Source: a virus
Taxonomy: Duplodnaviria > Heunggongvirae > Uroviricota > Caudoviricetes
IMG/VR virus record: IMGVR_UViG_2728369183_000006
Strand: one strand, 5' to 3'
DNA: 12,421 nucleotides
The translations under genes and the position numbers were made by a program. Below, one piece after another: positions 567 to 12,136 of this stretch (its first letter is position 1; the number at the start of each line of letters is the position of its first letter). The notes beneath the pieces were generated by a model. The model was not told the origin of the DNA and searched no databases. It saw only the letters and a program-made list of their open reading frames with translations.

Positions 567-1314
567 TGCAGGATATCCGGCAGGAAACACTGAATGAATG
601 CACCCGTGCGGAGCAGTCGGCCAGCGTGGTGCTCTGGGAAATCGATCTGACAGAGGTCGGTGGAGAACGTTATTTTTTCTGTAATGAGCAGAACGAAAAA
701 GGTGAGCCGGTCACCTGGCAGGGGCGACAGTATCAGCCGTATCNNNNNNNNNNNNNNNNNNNNNNNNNNNNNNNNNNNNNNNNNNNNNNNNNNNNNNNNN
801 NNNNNNNNNNNNNNNNNNNNNNNNNNNNNNNNNNNNNNNNNNNNNNNNNNNNNNNNNNNNNNNNNNNNNNNNNNNNNNCACCGGGATGGCGGAAGATCTG
901 CAGAGTCTGGTCGGCGGAACGGTGGTCCGGCGTAAGGTCTACGCCCGTTTTCTGGATGCGGTGAACTTCGTCAACGGAAACCGTGACGCCGATCCGGAGC
1001 AGGAGGTGATCAGCCGCTGGCGCATCGAGCAGTGCAGCGAACTGAGCGCAGTCAGTGCCTCTTTTGTACTGTCCACGCCGACGGAAACGGATGGCGCTGT
1101 TTTTCCGGGACGTATCATGCTGGCCAACACCTGCACCTGGACCTATCGCGGCGATGAGTGCGGTTATAGCGGTCCGGCGGTCGCGGATGAATATGATCAG
1201 CCGACGTCCGATATCACGAAGGATAAATGCAGCAAATGCCTGAGCGGCTGTAAGTTTCGCAATAACGTCGGCAACTTTGGCGGCTTCCTTTCCATTAACA
1301 AACTTTCGCAGTAA
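566..1314 (+). CDS. L: Tail tip protein L (Fe-S cluster-binding), interrupted by an N-run at 744-878
   Basis: The N-terminal part (MQDIRQETLNECTRAEQSASVVLWEIDL...) and C-terminal part (...CKFRNNVGNFGGFLSINKLSQ) both match lambda gpL from memory. The two parts are in different frames across the N-run, consistent with an unsized gap. A C-terminal cysteine cluster is present. Confidence 0.88.
744..878. other. Run of 135 N (assembly gap or masked segment) inside gene L
   Basis: Directly visible as N characters. The flanking L reading frames do not join, so the gap length is probably arbitrary. Confidence 0.95.
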
Positions 1315-2601: not shown

Positions 2602-2673
2602 TATTATTTACTCATGTTCTAACTGATTTAATATTTATATCGAACACTGATAATTATTCTATTGGTTAGCTAT

Positions 2674-3012
2674 ATGAACAAAACGATTTTATTCTGCACG
2701 ATTATTGCCTTAACAGGATGTAAGTCTTTGGATTACGTAAAATCCGGAAAACCTGTAATGGAAGGTAATTCATTAAAAAATATTGATGAATTGTCAGGCT
2801 GCATATCCAGACAATGGGCTGGTAATGGAACACCTATAACATCCCTTCCTATTGAGAATGGGGTAAGCCTTTTAGTTCCACAGGCTATGGGGGGATATGA
2901 TGTTGTGCTTGATATCAAAAAAGCAGGAAATGGCAGTAGTTTTACTCTTTATGAACGTGTACCAGCATTAACGCCAAAAATTTTTGCTGATAGTGTTAAT
3001 GCATGTAAATAA
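2674..3012 (+). CDS. Putative outer-membrane lipoprotein, a moron inserted between I and J
   Basis: ORF with the lipoprotein signal MNKTILFCTIIALTG|C (lipobox LTGC; the +2 residue is Lys, not Asp). The longest ORF starts at TTG 2662, but ATG 2674 gives a canonical signal peptide. The segment is markedly AT-rich compared with the flanking tail genes and is followed by an intrinsic terminator. I recognise no homolog. Confidence 0.6.
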   Translation: MNKTILFCTIIALTGCKSLDYVKSGKPVMEGNSLKNIDELSGCISRQWAGNGTPITSLPIENGVSLLVPQAMGGYDVVLDIKKAGNGSSFTLYERVPALTPKIFADSVNACK

Positions 3013-3078: not shown

Positions 3079-6000
3079 ATGGGTAAAGGAAGCAGTAAGG
3101 GGCATACCCCGCGCGAAGCGAGGGACAACCTGAAGTCCACGCAGCTGCTGAGTGTGATCGATGCCATCAGCGAAGGGCCGGTTGAAGGTCCGGTGGNNNN
3201 NNNNNNNNNNNNNNNNNNNNNNNNNNNNNNNNNNNNNNNNNNNNNNNNNNNNNNNNNNNNNNNNNNNNACCGGTGCTGGACAGTGAGGGGAATACTAACA
3301 TCTCTGGTGTCACGGTGGTGTTCCGGGCAGGTGAGCAGGAACAGACACCGCCGGAGGGATTTGAATCATCAGGTTCCGAGACGGTACTGGGTACGGAAGT
3401 GAAATACGACACGCCGATCACCCGGACCATCACGTCGGCAAACATTGACCGACTGCGTTTTACCTTCGGTGTGCAGGCACTGGTGGAAACCACCTCAAAG
3501 GGGGACAGGAATCCGTCGGAAGTTCGCCTGCTGGTTCAGATACAACGTAATGGTGGCTGGGTGACGGAAAAAGACATCACCATTAAGGGCAAAACCACCT
3601 CGCAGTATCTGGCCTCGGTGGTGGTGGGTAACCTGCCGCCGCGCCCGTTCAATATACGGATGCGCAGGATGACGCCGGACAGCACCACAGACCAGCTGCA
3701 GAACAAAACGCTCTGGTCGTCATACACCGAAATCATCGATGTGAAACAGGGCTACCCGAACACGGCACTGGTCGGCGTGCAGGTGGATTCGGAGCAGTTC
3801 GGCAGCCAGCAGGTGAGCCGTAATTATCATCTTCGCGGGCGCATTCTGCAGGTGCCGTCGAACTATAACCCGCAGACGCGNNNNNNNNNNACGGTATCTG
3901 GGACGGGACGTTTAAACCGGCATACAGCAACAACATGGCCTGGTGTCTGTGGGATATGCTGACCCACCCGCGCTACGGCATGGGGAAACGTCTTGGTGCG
4001 GCGGATGTGGACAAATGGGCGCTGTATGTCATCGGCCAGTATTGCGATCAGTCAGTGCCGGATGGCTTTGGTGGCACGGAGCCGCGCATCACCTGTAATG
4101 CCTACCTGACCACACAGCGTAAGGCGTGGGATGTTCTCAGTGATTTCTGCTCGGCGATGCGCTGTATGCCGGTATGGAACGGGCAGACGCTGACGTTCGT
4201 GCAGGACCGACCATCAGATAAGGTGTGGACCTATAACCGCAGTAATGTGGTGATGCCGGATGATGGCGCGCCGTTCCGCTACAGCTTCAGCGCCCTGAAG
4301 GACCGCCATAATGCCGTTGAGGTGAACTGGATTGACCCGAATAACGGCTGGGAGACGGCGACAGAGCTTGTTGAAGATACGCAGGCCATTCTCCGTTACG
4401 GTCGTAACGTCACGAAGATGGATGCCTTTGGCTGTACCAGCCGGGGGCAGGCACACCGCGCCGGGCTGTGGCTGATTAAAACGGAGCTGCTGGAAACGCA
4501 GACCGTGGACTTCAGCGTGGGTGCAGAAGGGCTTCGCCATGTACCGGGCGATGTCATTGAAATCTGTGATGATGACTATGCGGGTATCAGCATCGGCGGG
4601 CGCGTGCTGGCGGTGAACAGCCAGACGCGGACACTGACGCTCGACCGTGAAATCACGCTGCCATCCTCCGGCACCACGCTGATAAGCCTGGTTGACGGAC
4701 AGGGGAATCCGGTCAGCGTGGAGGTCCAGTCCGTCACCGACGGCGTGAAGGTGAAAGTGAGCCGTGTTCCTGACGGCGTTGCTGAATACAGCGTGTGGGG
4801 GCTGAAGCTGCCGACGCTGCGCCAGCGCCTGTTCCGCTGCGTGAGTATCCGTGAGAACGACGACGGCACGTATGCCATCACCGCCGTGCAGCATGTACCG
4901 GAAAAAGAAGCCATCGTGGATAACGGGGCGCACTTTGACGGCGACCAGAGCGGCACGGTGAATGGTGTCACGCCGCCAGCGGTGCAGCACCTGACTGCCG
5001 AAGTCACCGCAGACAGCGGGGAATATCAGGTGCTGGCCCGCTGGGACACGCCGAAGGTGGTGAAGGGCGTGAGCTTCCTGCTCCGTCTGACCGTAACAGC
5101 GGATGACGGCAGTGAGCGGCTGGTCAGCACGGCCCGGACGACGGAAACCACATACCGCTTCAGGCAGCTGGCGCTGGGGAACTACAGGCTGACAGTCAGG
5201 GCGGTAAATGCCTGGGGGCAGCAGGGTGATCCGGCGTCGGTATCATTCCGGATTGCCGCACCGGCAGCACCGTCGCGGATTGAGCTGACGCCGGGCTATT
5301 TTCAGATAACCGCCACGCCGCATCTTGCGGTTTATGATCCGACGGTACAGTTTGAGTTCTGGTTCTCGGAAAAACGGATTGCGGATATCAGGCAGGTTGA
5401 AACCAGCGCGCGTTATCTTGGTACGGCACTGTACTGGATAGCCGCCAGTATCAATATCAAACCGGGCCATGATTATTATTTTTACGTTCGCAGTGTGAAC
5501 ACCGTTGGCAAATCGGCATTCGTGGAGGCTGTCGGTCAGCCGAGTGATGATGCATCAGGCTATCTGGATTTTTTCAAAGGCGAGATAGGGAAAACCCATC
5601 TGGCTCAGGAGCTGTGGACGCAGATTGATAACGGTCAGCTTGCGCCTGACCTGACTGAAATCAGGACGTCCATAACGGATGTCAGCAATGAAATAACACA
5701 GACCGTCAATAAGAAACTGGAAGACCAGAGTGCAGCGATCCAGCAGATACAGAAGGTTCAGGTTGATACAAATAATAACCTGAACAGCATGTGGGCAGTG
5801 AAGCTGCAGCAGATGCAGGACGGACGCCTTTATATTGCGGGTATCGGTGCCGGTATTGAGAACACCCCTGACGGCATGCAGAGTCAGGTGCTGCTGGCAG
5901 CAGACAGGATTGCGATGATTAATCCTGCGAATGGCAACACAAAGCCGATGTTTGTTGGTCAGGGCGATCAGATATTCATGAATGAAGTGTTCCTGAAACG

Positions 6001-7322: not shown

Positions 7323-7332
7323 TGGGGTGAAT

Positions 7333-10300
7333 ATGGCAGTAAAGATTTCAGGTGTACTGAAAGACGGCACAGGAAAACCGGTACAGAACTGCACAATCCA
7401 GCTGAAAGCAAAACGTAACAGCACCACGGTGGTGGTGAACACGCTGGCCTCAGAAAATCCGGATGAAGCCGGGCGTTACAGCATGGACGTTGAGTACGGT
7501 CAGTACAGCGTTATTCTGTTGGTGGAAGGATTCCCGCCGTCACATGCCGGGACCATCACCGTGTATGAAGATTCCCGACCCGGTACGCTGAATGATTTTC
7601 TCGGTGCCATGACGGAGGATGATGCCCGTCCTGAGGCACTGCGCCGCTTTGAACTGATGGTGGAAGAGGTGGCGCGTAACGCGTCCGCGGTGGCACAGAA
7701 CACGGCAGCCGCGAAGAAATCAGCCAGCGATGCCAGCACATCAGCCCGTGAGGCGGCAACCCGTGCGACTGATGCTGCAGGCTCAGCACGAGCAGCCAGC
7801 ACGTCAGCCGGACAGGCCGCTTCGTCGGCTCAGTCTGCGTCTTCCAGCGCAGGAACGGCATCAGCAAAGGCCACTGAAGCATCAAAAAGTGCTGCCGCTG
7901 CAGAGTCCTCAAAAAGCGCGGCGGCCACCAGTGCCGGTGCGGCGAAAACGTCAGAAACGAATGCGGCAGCGTCACAACAATCAGCTGCCACTTCTGCATC
8001 CACCGCGACCACGAAAGCGTCAGAAGCAGCCACCTCAGCCAGAGATGCGTCGGCTTCAAAAGAGGCGGCAAAATTATCAGAAACGAGCGCAGCCTCGAGC
8101 GCCAGTAATGCCGCTTCCTCGGCAACGGCGGCAGGAAATTCCGCGAAGGCGGCAAAGACGTCTGAGACAAACGCTAAGTCCTCTGAAACGGCAGCAGCAC
8201 AGAGTGCCTCCGCAGCAGCAGGCTCAAAAACAGCGGCTGCGTCGTCTGCCAGTGCAGCGTCAACAAGTGCCGGGCAGGCCTCAGCCAGTGCTAGCGCCGC
8301 CGGAAAATCGGCAGAAAGCGCCGCATCGTCCGCTTCAACAGCCACAACGAAGGCTGGCGAAGCCACTGAACAGGCCAGTGCAGCAGCGAGGTCTGCTTCC
8401 GCAGCGAAGACATCGGAGACGAACGCGAAAGCGTCGGAGACCAGCGCAGAATCCTCAAAAACGGCTGCCGCATCGTCCGCCAGTTCGGCGGCGTCATCGG
8501 CATCATCGGCGTCTGCTTCAAAAGATGAGGCGACCAGACAGGCGTCAGCAGCGAAGGGCAGCGCCACGACAGCATCCGCGAAGGCGACAGAGGCAGCTGG
8601 CAGTGCGACGGCGGCAGCACAGAGCAAAAGTACGGCGGAATCCGCGGCAACGCGCGCCGAGACAGCGGCAAAACGGGCAGAGGATATTGCATCCGCCGTG
8701 GCGCTTGAGGATGCAAGTACGACGAAAAAGGGGATAGTACAGCTCAGCAGTGCGACCAACATCACATCTGAAACGCTTGCCGCGACACCGAAGGCAGTTA
8801 AAGCAGCGAATGACAATGCGAATGGCAGGGTACCATCTAACCGAAAAGTTAACGGGAAAGCACTGACTGCGGATATAACATTAACACCGAAAGATATTGG
8901 CACTTTAAATTCAGTAACGATCTCTTTCTCTGGCGGGGCTGGGTGGTTCAAACTGGCAACGGTTACCATGCCACAAGCGAGTTCCATCGTTTACATCGCA
9001 TTGATTGGTGGCGCTGGTTACAACGTCGGTTCCCCACATCAGGCAGGCATTTCAGAACTGGTTCTACGAGCAGGCAATGGAAACCCCAAAGGAATTACCG
9101 GGGCTTTGTGGAAGCGTACAGCCGTCGGATTAACGAATTTCGCCTGGATCAACACATCCGGCGATACATATGATATTTACGTTGAGATTGGCAATTATGC
9201 GACGAGTGTAAATATCCATTGGGATTGTACTGCAAATGCGTCAGTTTCTATTTATACCTCGCCAACATATTCAGCGAGTAAGCCTTCCAGCGTTACCGGT
9301 GGTGTTGTTTATACGATGTATAGCTCACATCAGAAACCTACACCATCAGATATTGGAGCGCTGCCAACGACTGGAGGGACTATTTCAGGTCCGTTGTCTG
9401 TTACTGATGGGATCACCGGGGCACTGAAGGGGAACGCCGATACCGCGACGAAACTTGCGGCAGCCCCAAAAATTAACGGTGTTAAGTTTGATGGCTCGGC
9501 GGATATTAACCTCACGCCGGAAAATATTGGTGCATTTGCCCGACGTTCGACGGGGGCTTATGCGGATTCGAATGGAGCCGTTCCCTGGAATGCCGAATCA
9601 GGCGCTTACAATGTCGCCCGCTCTGGCGACAGCTATATTCTGGTTAACTTCTATACCGGAGTCGGAAGTTGCCGGACCCTGCAGATGAAGGCGCATTACA
9701 GAAATCGTGGTCTGTTCTACCGTTCTTCAAGAGACGGTTATGGTTTTGAGGAAGACTGGGCAGAAGTTTATACCTCGAAAAATCTTCCACCAGAAAGCTA
9801 CCCAGTTGGCGCACCAATCCCGTGGCCATCAGATACCGTTCCGTCTGGTTATGCCCTGATGCAGGGGCAGACTTTTAACAAATCTGCCTACCCGAAACTT
9901 GCAGCGGCTTATCCGTCAGGCGTGATCCCTGATATGCGTGGCTGGACGATTAAGGGCAAACCCGCCAGTGGCCGGGCCGTATTGTCTCAGGAACAGGACG
10001 GCATAAAATCGCACACCCACAGCGCCAGCGCATCCAGTACGGATTTGGGGACGAAAACCACATCGTCGTTTGATTACGGCACTAAATCCACGAATAACAC
10101 CGGGGCGCATACGCACAGTCTGAGTGGCTCTACGGGGTCTGCCGGTGTTCATACTCATGGTAATGGTATTCGTTGGCCAGGAGGCGGCGGTTCTGCGTTA
10201 GCATTTTATGATGGCGGTGGGTTCACTTATGTCCAGAATTCACAGTATCAAGTAAGCCCGGAGACTTCTTCCTATAGATCGTATTATCAACGTATTCAGA

Positions 10301-10503
10301 CACAGTCAGCAGGTGCTCATACCCACTCGCTGTCTGGTACTGCAGCAAGTTCTGGCGCACATGCACATACTGTAGGTATTGGTGCGCATACGCACTCCGT
10401 TGCGATTGGTTCACATGGACACACCATCACCGTTAACGCTGCGGGTAACGCGGAAAACACCGTCAAAAACATCGCATTTAACTATATTGTGAGGCTTGCA
10501 TAA
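7333..10503 (+). CDS. stf: Side tail fibre protein Stf (long form, about 1056 aa)
   Basis: N-terminus [37 protein letters not shown] and C-terminus ...[31 protein letters not shown] match lambda Stf from memory. ATG 7333 is preferred over the GTG at 7327. It contains an Ala/Ser-rich repetitive shaft, [22 protein letters not shown]-type fibre repeats and His-rich HxH motifs. Confidence 0.88.
7680..8720 (+). repeat. GC-rich Ala/Ser/Thr low-complexity coding repeats within stf
   Basis: Reiterated AAKTSETNA-type units recur at about 7943, 8152 and 8404 with differing synonymous codons. The region produces long spurious ORFs in other frames on both strands. Confidence 0.6.
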
Positions 10504-11087
10504 TGGCATTCAGAATGAGTGAACAAGCACGGACCATAAAAATTTATAATCTGCTGGCCGGAACTAATGAATTTATTGGTGAAGGTGACGCATATATTCC
10601 GCCTCATACAGGTCTGCCAGCAAACAGTACCGATATTGCACCACCAGATATTCCTGCTGGCTTTGTGGCTGTTTTCAACAGTGATGAGGCATCGTGGCAT
10701 CTCGTTGAAGACCATCGGGGGAAAACGGTTTATGACGTAGCGTCAGGGGACGAGTTATTTATTTCTGAACTCGGTCCGTTACCGGAAAATGTTACCTGGT
10801 TATCGCCGGAAGGGGAGTTTCAGAAGTGGAACGGCACAGCCTGGGTGAAGGATACGGAAGCAGAAAAACTGTTCCGGATCCGGGAGGCGGAAGAAACAAA
10901 AAACAACCTGATGCAGGTAGCCAGTGAGCATATTGCGCCGCTTCAGGATGCTGCAGATCTGGAAATTGCAACGGAGGAAGAAACCTCATTGCTGGAAGCC
11001 TGGAAAAAGTATCGGGTGTTGCTGAACCGTGTTGATACATCAACTGCACCTGATATTGAGTGGCCTACGAACCCTGTCAGGGAGTAA
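10503..11087 (+). CDS. tfa: Tail fibre assembly protein Tfa
   Basis: 194-aa translation ([54 protein letters not shown]...) matches lambda Tfa from memory. Its ATG overlaps the stf stop (TAATG at 10501-10505). Confidence 0.9.
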
Positions 11088-11141: not shown

Positions 11142-11810
11142 CTATTTTTTCCCTGAAGCGGAAAACATTACTACAGTACCTTGAACCTTGGTTTTAACAT
11201 TCTCGAAATGCTCTGAGAGTATATGTGTTAAGCCTTCTTCGGAATCTTTTGTGTTTGAAAAGATGCCTTTCTGATTGTAAATGCGCATCAGTTTTTGACC
11301 GAAGCTATTGTGCACAACTCCATCGCCAAGAATTGTGGCTCCGTATAGAGTTCCATCGTCAGTTAAGGCCTGCGCCGCATTGCGTATTACACAGCTTTTT
11401 GTAGATATATTTCCAGGCAGGCAGTGAAGAAGGTAAAACATGGAAATGGAATCAAATTGACCATGTAACGCCGCGGGATAAGGTTCAAAAACATCATGGC
11501 TAATTTTATGTTTAATTTTTGATTCCCCAGCCCTTGTAGATGCCGCGTTCAGGCTAGCTTCGTTCAAATCCATTAAAGATATCAGACTACTCTCAGGTAC
11601 GTGAGTAAGGTAAAACCCAGTTCCAACACCAATATCCAGATGGTTGTTACCTACATGTTCCAGAAAGTGTGGAAGAAGGTGTTCCTTTGTAGGACATCCC
11701 CATGCAAGCCGATTTGATACTCCCAAAACCCACCAGTCATAAAGCTTTAGGGTAAGTGGTGTGTAAATTTTAGCCCCATCATCTGTGTTTTTTTTCATTG
11801 ATTTCACCAT
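11142..11810 (-). CDS. Class I SAM-dependent methyltransferase, unknown substrate (accessory cargo gene)
   Basis: Minus-strand ORF of 222 aa. An alternative start at 11798 (MKKNTDDG...) has a GGTGA-like RBS. Rossmann motif I is present (HLDIGVGTGFY), with an acidic residue after beta2 (SLMD) and a FDSISMFYLLHCLP-type motif. No DPPY/NPPY motif is visible, so a DNA N6/N4-methyltransferase seems unlikely. The segment is AT-rich. Confidence 0.7.
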   Translation of the reverse strand: MVKSMKKNTDDGAKIYTPLTLKLYDWWVLGVSNRLAWGCPTKEHLLPHFLEHVGNNHLDIGVGTGFYLTHVPESSLISLMDLNEASLNAASTRAGESKIKHKISHDVFEPYPAALHGQFDSISMFYLLHCLPGNISTKSCVIRNAAQALTDDGTLYGATILGDGVVHNSFGQKLMRIYNQKGIFSNTKDSEEGLTHILSEHFENVKTKVQGTVVMFSASGKK

Positions 11811-11866: not shown

Positions 11867-12136
11867 ATGCTGCCGCAGCATAGCGATATTGAAATAGCCT
11901 GGTATGCTTCGATACAGCAGGAGCCGAATGGCTGGAAGACCGTCACCACACAGTTCTACATCCAGGAATTCAGTGAGTATATTGCGCCACTGCAGGATGC
12001 TGTAGATCTGGAAATCGCAACGGAGGAAGAAAGATCGTTGCTGGAGGCATGGAATAAATATCGGGTATTGTTGAATCGTGTTGATACATCAACTGCACCT
12101 GATATTGAGTGGCCTGCAAACCCTGTCAGGGAGTAA
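11867..12136 (+). CDS. Tfa-like ORF (89 aa): novel 36-aa N-terminus fused to a conserved Tfa C-terminal domain; possibly a functional mini-Tfa or a remnant
   Basis: The C-terminal 54 aa ([54 protein letters not shown]) differ from the tfa C-terminus at only about 5 positions. An AAGGGG RBS lies 4 nt upstream of the ATG. Confidence 0.5.

What the first reader, a model, noticed from the sequence alone, without database searches (positions are those of the whole stretch)
8790..9790. Mosaic middle module inside stf with lower GC and T4-like fibre repeats
The Ala/Ser-rich shaft (7680-8720) is very GC-rich, whereas the following ~1 kb is visibly more AT-rich. That segment encodes motifs absent from my recollection of lambda Stf: two KxNGxxFDGSxDIxLTPxxIGA-type fibre repeats ([43 protein letters not shown]) and a domain [12 protein letters not shown]...[10 protein letters not shown]. 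The lambda-like receptor-binding tail resumes at GAPIPWPSD (about 9810). This indicates intragenic module exchange.
Basis: partly seen in the sequence, partly recalled or inferred. Interest (0 to 1): 0.45.

Follow-up and report, generated by a model that had tools for sequence, protein, structure and literature searches.

The report
Swapped middle cassettes in prophage tail-fibre gene
The middle of this E. coli prophage side-tail-fibre gene is built from two swappable cassettes shared with T-even, P2/Mu and plasmid-phage fibres instead of lambda's elbow and distal rod; this is a clear but ordinary case of the long-known shuffling of phage tail-fibre genes.

Summary
All quoted motifs are at the stated coordinates. 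The shaft is 62% GC and 8790-9790 is 48.6% GC. The segment has no counterpart in Ur-lambda Stf. Homology to lambda stops at 8801-8803 (after TPKAVK) and resumes at 9808 (GAPIPWPSD).

- **GC contrast.** It is mostly an amino-acid effect. Codon position 2 drops from 0.80 to 0.53 because the shaft is 75% Ala/Ser/Thr. Position 3 differs only marginally (p=0.04). The lower GC3 continues through the rest of stf and tfa.
- **Two cassettes, not one module.**
  - Cassette A (8820-9426) is a degenerate fibre repeat plus a beta-sandwich bead. It is shared with T2 gp37 (46% aa) and with the 108-kb phage Cyrano (94% nt).
  - Cassette B (9483-9807) is gp37_C / Mu S' / P2 H-like. It is also present in K-12 Rac StfR (89% nt).
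  - The join between them lies in the T4-gp37-like GNAxTATKL...FDGS motif.
- **What they replace.** Together they replace lambda's hinge and distal coiled coil (about aa 386-529), exactly where functional engineered lambda-STF chimeras were fused (aa 393 and 528).
- **Frequency.** Cassette A is in 587 and cassette B in 1843 of 5426 complete E. coli genomes.

Verdict: real, well explained and already known in kind, so of low interest.

The parts
7333..10503 (+). stf, side tail fibre gene (1056 aa), annotated in RefSeq as WP_021537919.1 'prophage tail fiber N-terminal domain-containing protein'
   Evidence: PHROG tail-fibre families
7333..7734 (+). N-terminal tail-attachment domain (Pfam PF08400 phage_tail_N, aa 1-134)
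   Evidence: E 1.4e-71; 90% nt identity to lambda, 98-99% to StfR-type genes
7735..8700 (+). Ala/Ser/Thr-rich proximal coiled-coil shaft. It is about 101 aa longer than lambda's: 8242-8545 has no lambda counterpart.
   Evidence: lambda domain map from PMC12617516
8701..8819 (+). Conserved cap motif ([18 protein letters not shown]...[13 protein letters not shown]) that ends the proximal rod. It is the left recombination joint: homology to lambda ends at 8801-8803, and homology to StfR, Turner, PhiR30_1 and phage 204576 ends at 8819.
8820..9426 (+). Cassette A. No DNA homology to lambda, StfR, Turner, PhiR30_1 or phage 204576; 94% identical to the phage Cyrano fibre. Present in 587 of 5426 complete E. 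coli genomes, with 117 places on plasmids.
8842..8904 (+). Fibre repeat 1 ([21 protein letters not shown]), a degenerate copy lacking FDGS
8908..9315 (+). Beta-sandwich (jelly-roll-like) bead domain ([12 protein letters not shown]...[10 protein letters not shown]...). No Pfam model covers it. 46% identical to T2 gp37 residues 821-924.
9404..9482 (+). Junction zone between cassettes ([42 protein letters not shown]). Homology to Cyrano ends at 9458, homology to Turner and PhiR30_1 starts at 9427, to StfR at 9478 and to phage 204576 at 9482. Many E. coli matches to cassette A end at 9404-9410.
9469..9534 (+). Fibre repeat 2 ([22 protein letters not shown]), T4-like gp37 type
9483..9807 (+). Cassette B: gp37_C (PF12604) / Mu S' / P2 H-like domain. 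87-89% nt identical to K-12 Rac StfR, Turner, PhiR30_1 and phage 204576; absent from lambda. Present in 1843 of 5426 E. coli genomes.
9808..10500 (+). Receptor-binding region: Collar domain (PF07484, 9808-9951) plus a His-box needle homologous to the T4 gp37 tip (PDB 2XGF, E 6e-83). Lambda-like, 68% aa identity.
10133..10305 (+). Third swapped patch, inside the needle. No DNA homology to lambda, StfR, Turner or PhiR30_1; 99% identical to phage 204576.
10503..11087 (+). tfa, tail fibre assembly chaperone (PF02413)

Best explanation
Bases about 8803-9800 of stf encode the elbow and distal-shaft part of a trimeric lambda-type side tail fibre. That part is assembled from two independently exchangeable cassettes.

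Cassette A (8820-9426) is a short fibre repeat followed by a jelly-roll-like beta-sandwich 'bead'. The same bead occurs in the distal half-fibre of T2 gp37, in Felix-O1-like fibres and in fibres of about 110-kb phage-plasmids. Cassette B (9483-9807) is a T4-gp37-type repeat followed by a gp37_C / Mu S' / P2 H-like domain that sits just before the collar and needle-shaped receptor-binding tip.

Together they replace what in Ur-lambda is the hinge (aa 394-422) and the distal six-chain coiled coil (aa 423-525).

Shown: the cassette boundaries, the incongruent relationships of neighbouring segments, and the occurrence of the same cassette in unrelated fibre backbones.

Inferred:
1. The exchange happened by recombination at the short conserved DNA stretches that encode the boundary motifs (ATPKAVK..DNA; GNAxTATKL..GVxFDGS; GAPIPWP). 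These coincide with structural domain boundaries, so chimeras still fold.
2. The cassettes act mainly as structural spacers and registers. They set fibre length, knobs and flexibility, and they present the T4-gp37-like tip, which with Tfa does the actual receptor binding.
For: **Breakpoints**
- Lambda homology covers 7327-8241 and 8546-8801, then resumes at 9808.
- Homology to StfR, Turner, PhiR30_1 and phage 204576 runs to 8819 and resumes at 9427-9482.
- Cyrano homology covers 7863-9458 only.
- The junction alignments show the decay of identity inside the conserved motifs.

**Per-segment identity matrix**
- Cassette A matches only Cyrano (94%).
- Cassette B matches the StfR group (87-89%) and Cyrano (71%).
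- The tip patch matches only phage 204576 (99%).
- The N-terminus is 98-99% identical to the StfR group and has no match in Cyrano.

**Cassette mobility**
- phmmer over 1.84 billion cluster representatives finds only 180 clusters carrying the bead. At least 14 different 50%-identity clusters carry a copy 93% or more identical, at positions from residue 68 to 543.
- These proteins have different ends: PF08400+Collar, Phage_fiber_2+Gp34_trimer, Peptidase_S74 and Gly_rich_2.

**Homologies**
- T2 gp37 821-924, 46%.
- RB3 gp37 55-129, 48%.
- Mu S' PDB 8ju3 residues 321-409, E 7e-21.
- P2-like H, 55%.
- PF12604, 24.0 bits against a cut-off of 22.5.

**Fold of the bead**
- AF2 gives a beta-sandwich with pTM 0.70.
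- In BFVD it matches gp37 proteins and EPS depolymerases.

**Structural context**
- The Ur-lambda Stf domain map comes from PMC12617516.
- Functional engineered chimeras fused lambda STF 1-393 to P2 H and 1-528 to a K5 fibre (PMC11338833). These are the same two junctions: lambda MDETNR ends at 393 and GAGENS at 528.

**Prior knowledge and mechanism**
- Exchange of stf segments among unrelated temperate and virulent phages is described as well documented, and lambda recombines with Rac and Qin stf/tfa in the laboratory (PMC3945230).

**Tip**
- The tip is homologous to T4 gp37 2XGF, E 6e-83.
Against: - No trimer model could be made. The bead model is only moderately confident (mean pLDDT 69.5) and the cassette B model failed (pLDDT 48).
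- The direction and age of the exchanges are not determined.
- A purely structural role for the bead is inferred from its position in T2 gp37 and from its pairing with many different tips. It was not tested.
- Composition gives only weak support: the GC3 difference has p=0.04.
- PMC3945230 attributes the ancient inter-family stf exchanges mainly to invertase-mediated site-specific recombination, not to homologous recombination at motifs. No invertase gene lies in this window, although Rac has pinR.
Confidence: 0.8

Rival explanations
1. The beta-sandwich bead of cassette A is not just a spacer. It is an accessory carbohydrate-binding site on the fibre shaft for O-antigen, capsule or other surface glycan, which would give the fibre a second receptor specificity besides the needle tip.
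For: - Side tail fibres can recognise glycans. Gifsy-1 Stf binds an LPS core galactose (PMC12312913). Ur-lambda side fibres let the phage overcome unmodified O16 antigen, and some lateral fibres carry two receptor-binding domains (PMC11990801).
Against: - The same bead, 93% or more identical, is combined with very different distal tips. In T2 gp37 it lies mid-shaft, about 420 residues before the C-terminus, and in T2 a separate host-specificity tail fibre protein is annotated immediately downstream of gp37.
- In WceF the jelly-roll is described as part of the intertwined trimer-stabilising C-terminus, not as a binding site.
- Similarity to lectins is at background level for beta-sandwiches.
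- No binding-site residues could be identified.
Confidence: 0.15
2. There was no exchange. The middle of stf is homologous to lambda's but has diverged beyond recognition, and the GC shift is only an amino-acid-composition effect.
For: The GC contrast with the shaft is indeed mostly at codon position 2, and the GC3 difference is marginal.
Against: - Flanks are 79-88% identical to lambda at DNA level and identity collapses within a few bases.
- The lengths differ: 332 aa here against 144 aa in lambda.
- Predicted architectures differ: beta-sandwich plus gp37_C here against hinge plus helical bundle in lambda.
- The same cassettes are 88-94% identical in genes whose other parts are unrelated or differently related.
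Confidence: 0.02
3. The mosaic is an assembly artefact: a chimeric contig that joins fibre genes of different prophages.
For: E. coli genomes carry several stf paralogues (up to 6 places per genome), which can confuse short-read assemblies. The window also contains masked N runs.
Against: - The 1001-bp segment is 100% identical and contiguous in at least seven independent complete genomes, and 80% or more of it is covered in 407 genomes.
- The reading frame is intact across all junctions.
- The N runs lie outside stf.
Confidence: 0.01

Closest known systems
Ur-lambda side tail fibre Stf (774 aa)
   Same: - Gene position after lom and before tfa.
- N-terminal PF08400 anchor and Ala/Ser-rich coiled-coil shaft (80% aa identity over aa 1-352).
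- The [10 protein letters not shown]...TPKAVK cap motif.
- Collar and His-box needle tip (68% aa identity).

   Different: Lambda aa 386-529 (hinge plus distal coiled coil, PMC12617516) are replaced by 332 unrelated residues (cassettes A and B). The shaft is about 101 aa longer. The tip patch 10133-10305 differs.
E. coli K-12 Rac prophage StfR (1120 aa) and StfR-type fibres of phages Turner, PhiR30_1 and 204576
   Same: The N-terminus, shaft and cap are 90-99% nt identical. Cassette B and the collar are 87-98% identical. The architecture is the same: rod, middle cassette, FDGS repeat, gp37_C domain, needle.
   Different: Slot A holds an unrelated cassette of about 290 aa (GCFLNNINAVSKTDF...), itself found in two variants (98% and about 63% aa identity), instead of the 200-aa bead cassette.
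T-even long tail fibre distal subunit gp37 (T2, RB3 / T4-like)
   Same: - Bead domain 46% identical to T2 gp37 residues 821-924.
- The GGTIxGxL...GNAxTATKL...INGxxFDGSxDIxLTP motif is 48% identical to RB3 gp37 residues 55-129.
- The tip is homologous to T4 gp37 PDB 2XGF (E 6e-83).

   Different: The attachment is different (lambda-type N-terminal collar and coiled coil, not the gp36 joint). The order and number of domains differ. Similarity is confined to separate cassettes.
P2 gpH, Mu S/S' and P1 S-like tail fibres
   Same: Cassette B is 55% identical to P2-like H proteins (about 160 aa before their C-terminus). It matches residues 321-409 of PDB 8ju3, a chain labelled 'Tail fiber protein S,Tail fiber protein S'' (attributing this entry to phage Mu is my own knowledge). 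The KAVKxxxDNAN cap motif is also present there.
   Different: These are contractile-tail baseplate fibres with other N-termini and other tips. No invertible segment or invertase is present in this window.
Post-beta-helix jelly-roll domain of WceF (PDB 6tgf) and of Acinetobacter phage tailspikes
   Different: Only 11-12% sequence identity. Here the domain is mid-fibre with no beta-helix enzyme domain. The aligned range was not reported by the tools.
Engineered lambda-STF chimeras (Broedel et al. 2024, PMC11338833)
   Same: Fusion points lambda aa 393 and aa 528 coincide with the natural left and right breakpoints found here.
   Different: Those chimeras replace everything distal to the junction with foreign tips. 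Here only the middle is replaced and a lambda-like tip is kept.

Membership tests
Lambda-type side tail fibre (Stf) | N-terminal prophage tail fibre domain (Pfam PF08400) that anchors the fibre to the tail | tested here: met
   239 bits against a cut-off of 26.6, aa 1-134
Lambda-type side tail fibre (Stf) | Gene order J - lom - stf - tfa in a lambdoid tail operon, with a Caudo_TAP assembly chaperone immediately downstream | tested here: met
Lambda-type side tail fibre (Stf) | Lambda-type hinge and distal coiled coil between the proximal rod and the tip (lambda aa 394-525) | tested here: not met
   No similarity by BLASTP, even at E up to 10 with word size 2. The region is replaced by cassettes A and B. 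This feature is variable within the family: StfR also lacks it.
T4 gp37-type needle tip | Collar domain followed by His-x-His repeats homologous to the solved gp37 tip | tested here: met
   PF07484 45.7 bits, PF03335 24.9 bits; PDB 2XGF E 6e-83 covering chain residues 27-242
Pfam gp37_C (PF12604) | Score at or above the gathering threshold | tested here: met
   24.0 bits against a cut-off of 22.5 on the excised segment, aa 263-320 of the segment. This is marginal, but it is supported by Mu S' 8ju3 at E 7e-21 and by precomputed PF12604 hits on close relatives.
Pfam Phage_fiber_2 repeat (PF03406) | Score at or above the gathering threshold over the KxNGxxFDGS-type repeats | tested here: not met
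   15.2 bits against a cut-off of 22, and the hit lies on segment aa 1-16, not on either repeat. The repeats are therefore not PF03406 members. Their T4-like nature rests on the RB3 gp37 alignment.
T4-like gp37 proximal fibre motif | GNAxTATKLxxxRxI(N/S)GxxFDGSxxIxLT consensus | tested here: met
   Repeat 2 plus its upstream GNADTATKL matches fully and is 48% identical to RB3 gp37 55-129 (E 3e-15). Repeat 1 matches only the second half (xNGxxL..xDIxLTPxxIG).
Tailspike / WceF post-helix jelly-roll domain | Eight-stranded two-sheet beta-sandwich following a triple beta-helix and intertwined in the trimer | tested here: inconclusive
Invertase-switched (G/C/P-segment) tail fibre genes | Adjacent site-specific invertase and inverted alternative 3' exons | tested here: not met
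   There is no invertase ORF in the window. The downstream genes are tfa, a methyltransferase on the minus strand and a direct (not inverted) tfa 3' remnant.

The most novel reading that the evidence does not exclude
The beta-sandwich bead of cassette A is a shaft-borne lectin. It would give this class of side tail fibres (about 10% of complete E. coli genomes) a second, glycan-directed receptor specificity that can be swapped independently of the needle tip. Fibre shafts, not only tips, would then be host-range determinants.
Probability: 0.12. Interest if true: 0.45.

Novelty: already known. Interest (0 to 1): 0.15.

Why it matters
It matters little for discovery. Mosaic tail fibres that link lambda Stf, T4 gp37, P2 H, Mu S and P1 S have been known since about 1989-1994 (cited as well documented in PMC3945230). 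This exact allele is annotated in many RefSeq genomes.

The practical value is a clean natural map of permissive junctions in a lambda-type fibre: about 8803-8822, 9404-9482, 9800-9808, 10133 and 10306. Two of these coincide with fusion points that worked in engineered delivery particles (PMC11338833). The other junctions, and the bead cassette for which Pfam has no model, could guide further fibre engineering and annotation.

Tried and rejected
- **Domain libraries.** NCBIfam gave no family for Stf. Pfam has no model over the bead, even at E up to 10.
- **PF21446.** It is listed for some relatives, but it lies downstream of the bead in other cassette combinations, not on the bead.
- **AF2 of cassette B.** Run with a shallow alignment, it gave pLDDT 48 and pTM 0.39. 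It was judged unusable and was not fold-searched.
- **Literature.** A search for the junction peptides MDETNR, GAGENS and ADAKKS found nothing relevant. The junction residues were instead recovered from the methods of PMC11338833. The Mu(-) fibre structure paper (Virology 2024) is not held, so the role of the 8ju3 321-409 domain could not be read.
- **RNA families.** The Rfam scan found nothing in 8790-9790; its only hit is IS009 inside tfa.
- **DNA repeats.** The direct-repeat search found no DNA-level repeat between the two fibre motifs. They are similar only as protein.
- **Minus-strand ORF.** The 385-aa ORF at 7830-8987 (-) is the mirror image of the Ala/Ser-rich coding strand (its translation is likewise dominated by Ala) and was not pursued.
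- **Composition as evidence of foreign origin.** Rejected after the per-codon-position analysis.
- **Data handling.** One Python run mixed several loci stored in one file and was repeated correctly.
Full report
**Context**

The 12.4-kb window is the tail end of a lambdoid prophage. The gene order is M, L, K, I, a small low-GC ORF, J, lom, stf, tfa, a methyltransferase on the minus strand, and a tfa remnant. The finding's 1001-bp segment is 100% identical to the chromosome of E. coli AR_0017, where the prophage lies next to an ompW remnant and the trp operon, and the whole stf gene is 99.97% identical to it. stf is 7333-10503 (+), 1056 aa, annotated in RefSeq as WP_021537919.1 'prophage tail fiber N-terminal domain-containing protein'.

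**1. The observation**

- [21 protein letters not shown] at 8842-8904
- [12 protein letters not shown] at 8935-8970
- [10 protein letters not shown] at 9169-9198
- [22 protein letters not shown] at 9469-9534
- GAPIPWPSD at 9808-9834

The composition contrast is also real: 62.1% GC for 7680-8720 against 48.6% for 8790-9790 (p=1.5e-9). Splitting by codon position changes what it means:
- Position 2 falls from 0.80 to 0.53 (p=2e-13), because the shaft is 38% Ala, 25% Ser and 12% Thr.
- Position 1 does not differ.
- Position 3 differs only from 0.52 to 0.44 (p=0.04).

GC3 stays low after the segment (0.48 in the lambda-like C-terminal part, 0.45 in tfa; p=0.42 against the segment). All distal fibre sequence is far below J (0.66). 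The AT-richer look is therefore mostly a consequence of what the shaft encodes. It marks no boundary at 9800.

**2. Absence from lambda, and the breakpoints**

I took Ur-lambda Stf (774 aa, intact frame) from record LC730321.
- At protein level, aa 1-352 are 80% identical and the C-terminal 230-250 aa are 68% identical.
- The cap motif [45 protein letters not shown] is 79% identical.
- Window aa 491-822 and lambda aa 386-529 give no alignment, even at permissive settings.
- At DNA level, lambda homology covers 7327-8241 and 8546-8801, and resumes at 9808.

**3. The 'module' is two cassettes**

| Comparison | Homology runs to | Homology resumes at |
|---|---|---|
| K-12 Rac stfR | 8819 (95%) | 9478 (92%) |
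| Phages Turner and PhiR30_1 | 8819 | 9427 |
| Phage 204576 | 8819 | 9482 |
| Phage Cyrano fibre (108 kb, 1341 aa, 'P1 S homolog') | covers 7863-9458 (88%), then stops | a weaker copy of 9468-9759 (71%) lies elsewhere in that gene |

The per-segment matrix is plainly incongruent:

| Segment | Matches |
|---|---|
| N-terminus | 98-99% to the StfR group, none to Cyrano |
| Cassette A (8820-9426) | 94% to Cyrano, none to all the others |
| Cassette B (9483-9807) | 87-89% to the StfR group, none to lambda |
| Tip patch (10133-10305) | 99% to phage 204576, none to all the others |

In slot A the StfR group carries an unrelated cassette of about 290 aa, itself found in two variants (98% and about 63% identity).

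Junction alignments show identity decaying inside the sequences that encode three conserved peptide motifs: ATPKAVK(A)xxDNA on the left, GNAxTATKL...GVxFDGS in the middle, and P.GAPIPWP on the right.

**4. What the cassettes are**

*Cassette A* consists of repeat 1 followed by a domain of about 140 aa.
- Neither Pfam nor NCBIfam has a model for the domain. PHROGs place it in tail-fibre families.
- It is 46% identical to T2 gp37 residues 821-924.
- It recurs at 42-55% identity in T-even gp37 proteins, in Felix-O1-like fibres and in SJ46-type plasmid-phages.
- An AlphaFold2 model built on 30 homologues is a beta-sandwich (pTM 0.70, core pLDDT 75-91).
- Among predicted viral structures it matches gp37 proteins and EPS depolymerases.
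- WceF has a 137-residue eight-stranded jelly-roll (residues 531-667) after its beta-helix, intertwined in the trimer (PMC7949094). That this is the matched part is my inference from size, because the tools do not print aligned ranges.

*Linker and repeat 2.* The stretch [66 protein letters not shown] is 48% identical to residues 55-129 of T4-like RB3 gp37. The 'T4-like repeat' label is therefore justified. It is not a member of Pfam PF03406 (15.2 bits against a cut-off of 22, and the hit lies elsewhere). In Cyrano's fibre the same motif occurs four times between different globular domains, so it behaves as a generic joint.

*Cassette B* matches:
- Pfam gp37_C (24.0 bits against 22.5);
- residues 321-409 of PDB 8ju3, labelled 'Tail fiber protein S,Tail fiber protein S'' and which I take from my own knowledge to be phage Mu's G(-) fibre (E 7e-21);
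- P2-like H proteins at 55%, about 160 aa before their C-terminus.

An AF2 model of cassette B failed (pLDDT 48).

*Downstream region.* From 9808 the protein is a Collar domain plus a His-box needle homologous to the solved T4 gp37 tip (2XGF, E 6e-83). It is followed by the Tfa chaperone gene.

**5. Frequency and mobility**

- Cassette A occurs in 587 of 5426 complete E. coli genomes. Of its 709 places, 117 are on plasmids, and most plasmid records listed are about 110 kb.
- Cassette B occurs in 1843 genomes. The whole segment is 80% or more covered in 407 genomes.
- No phage record in the phage collection carries the complete stf allele.
- A full HMMER pass over 1.84 billion cluster representatives finds the bead in only 180 clusters. 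At least 14 distinct 50%-identity clusters carry a copy 93% or more identical, at residue positions from 68 to 543.
- Those proteins end in different ways: lambda-type anchor with Collar needle, Phage_fiber_2 with Gp34_trimer, Peptidase_S74 chaperone tips, or a Gly-rich domain.

The same cassette is therefore plugged into many fibre backbones.

**6. How it most likely works**

Yu et al. 2025 (PMC12617516) map Ur-lambda Stf as follows:
- collar domain, aa 1-91
- linker, aa 92-101
- proximal coiled coil, aa 102-393
- hinge, aa 394-422
- distal six-chain coiled coil, aa 423-525
- receptor-binding domain that is predicted to fit into OmpC

The natural replacement found here removes exactly the hinge plus the distal coiled coil. 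In its place it installs repeat, bead, beta-rich stalk and gp37_C domain. The breakpoints therefore sit at structural domain boundaries.

Brödel et al. 2024 (PMC11338833) made functional particles by fusing lambda STF 1-393 to P2 H and 1-528 to a K5 fibre. These are the same two positions: MDETNR ends at 393 and GAGENS at 528. This shows experimentally that these junctions tolerate foreign distal parts.

I infer that the cassettes are structural. They set length, knobs and bending, and they present the needle tip. I also infer that they were acquired by recombination at the short conserved motif-coding patches. Relaxed homologous recombination between lambda and the Rac and Qin stf/tfa genes has been demonstrated (PMC3945230). 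The same paper attributes the ancient inter-family exchanges mainly to fibre-associated invertases, and none is present in this window.

A minority reading is that the bead is an accessory glycan-binding site. It is suggested by the fold's company and by glycan recognition by other side fibres. It is weakened by the bead's promiscuous pairing with many tips and by its mid-shaft position in T2 gp37.

**7. Comparison with the known, and novelty**

This is a member of the lambda Stf / Rac StfR family of side tail fibres by anchor domain, gene context and tip. It lacks lambda's own hinge and distal rod, as StfR does. Sharing of fibre segments among lambda, T4, P2, Mu and P1 is textbook knowledge; PMC3945230 cites Montag 1989 and Haggård-Ljungquist 1992. 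I found no paper describing this particular cassette combination, but it is an ordinary instance and is already annotated in hundreds of genomes. Interest is low.

**Limits**

No trimer modelling was possible and there are no experimental data. The direction of exchange is unknown. The fold-match range is inferred. Population-wide breakpoint statistics were not computed, because only summary counts were available.

Noticed in passing
window 10133-10305: A 173-bp patch inside the needle-shaped receptor-binding region has no DNA homology to lambda, Rac StfR, Turner or PhiR30_1, but it is 99% identical to phage 204576. It looks like a third swapped cassette, probably the receptor-contacting head of the T4-gp37-like tip (aa about 934-991, [29 protein letters not shown]...).
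   Followed up: partly
window 8242-8545 (shaft): The Ala/Ser/Thr-rich coiled-coil shaft is about 101 aa longer than lambda's; this stretch has no lambda counterpart. Degenerate DNA repeats in the shaft are spaced by multiples of 42 nt (14 aa), which suggests length variation by repeat expansion.
   Followed up: partly
window 2662-3012 (+): A low-GC ORF (36% GC, GC3 0.26) is inserted between tail genes I and J. Its N-terminus MNKTILFCTIIALTGCKS looks like a lipoprotein signal. It has no Pfam hit and matches phrog_914 (unknown function). It is a typical moron and may be a surface or exclusion lipoprotein.
   Followed up: partly
window 10846-11044 (+): The Rfam family IS009 (RF02111) matches at 225 bits (gathering score 117), entirely inside the 3' half of the tfa coding sequence.
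   Followed up: no
window 11142-11810 (-) and 11867-12136 (+): A class I SAM-dependent methyltransferase gene (phrog_2132) on the opposite strand lies between tfa and an 89-aa remnant that duplicates the tfa 3' end (PF02413, about 90% identical C-terminal peptide). This suggests insertion or recombination within a former tfa region.
   Followed up: partly
window 744-878, 3197-3268, 3881-3890: There are runs of N (masked sequence) inside genes L and J. They break the ORF calls there but do not touch stf.
   Followed up: no
P0087 (791 aa): One database protein carries two copies of the bead domain (two matched stretches, 81% identity). The cassette can therefore also be duplicated within a single fibre.
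   Followed up: no
window 7830-8987 (-): A 385-aa antisense ORF overlaps the shaft. It is Ala-rich like the sense frame and is most likely a by-product of the biased GCN/NGC composition, not a gene.
   Followed up: no
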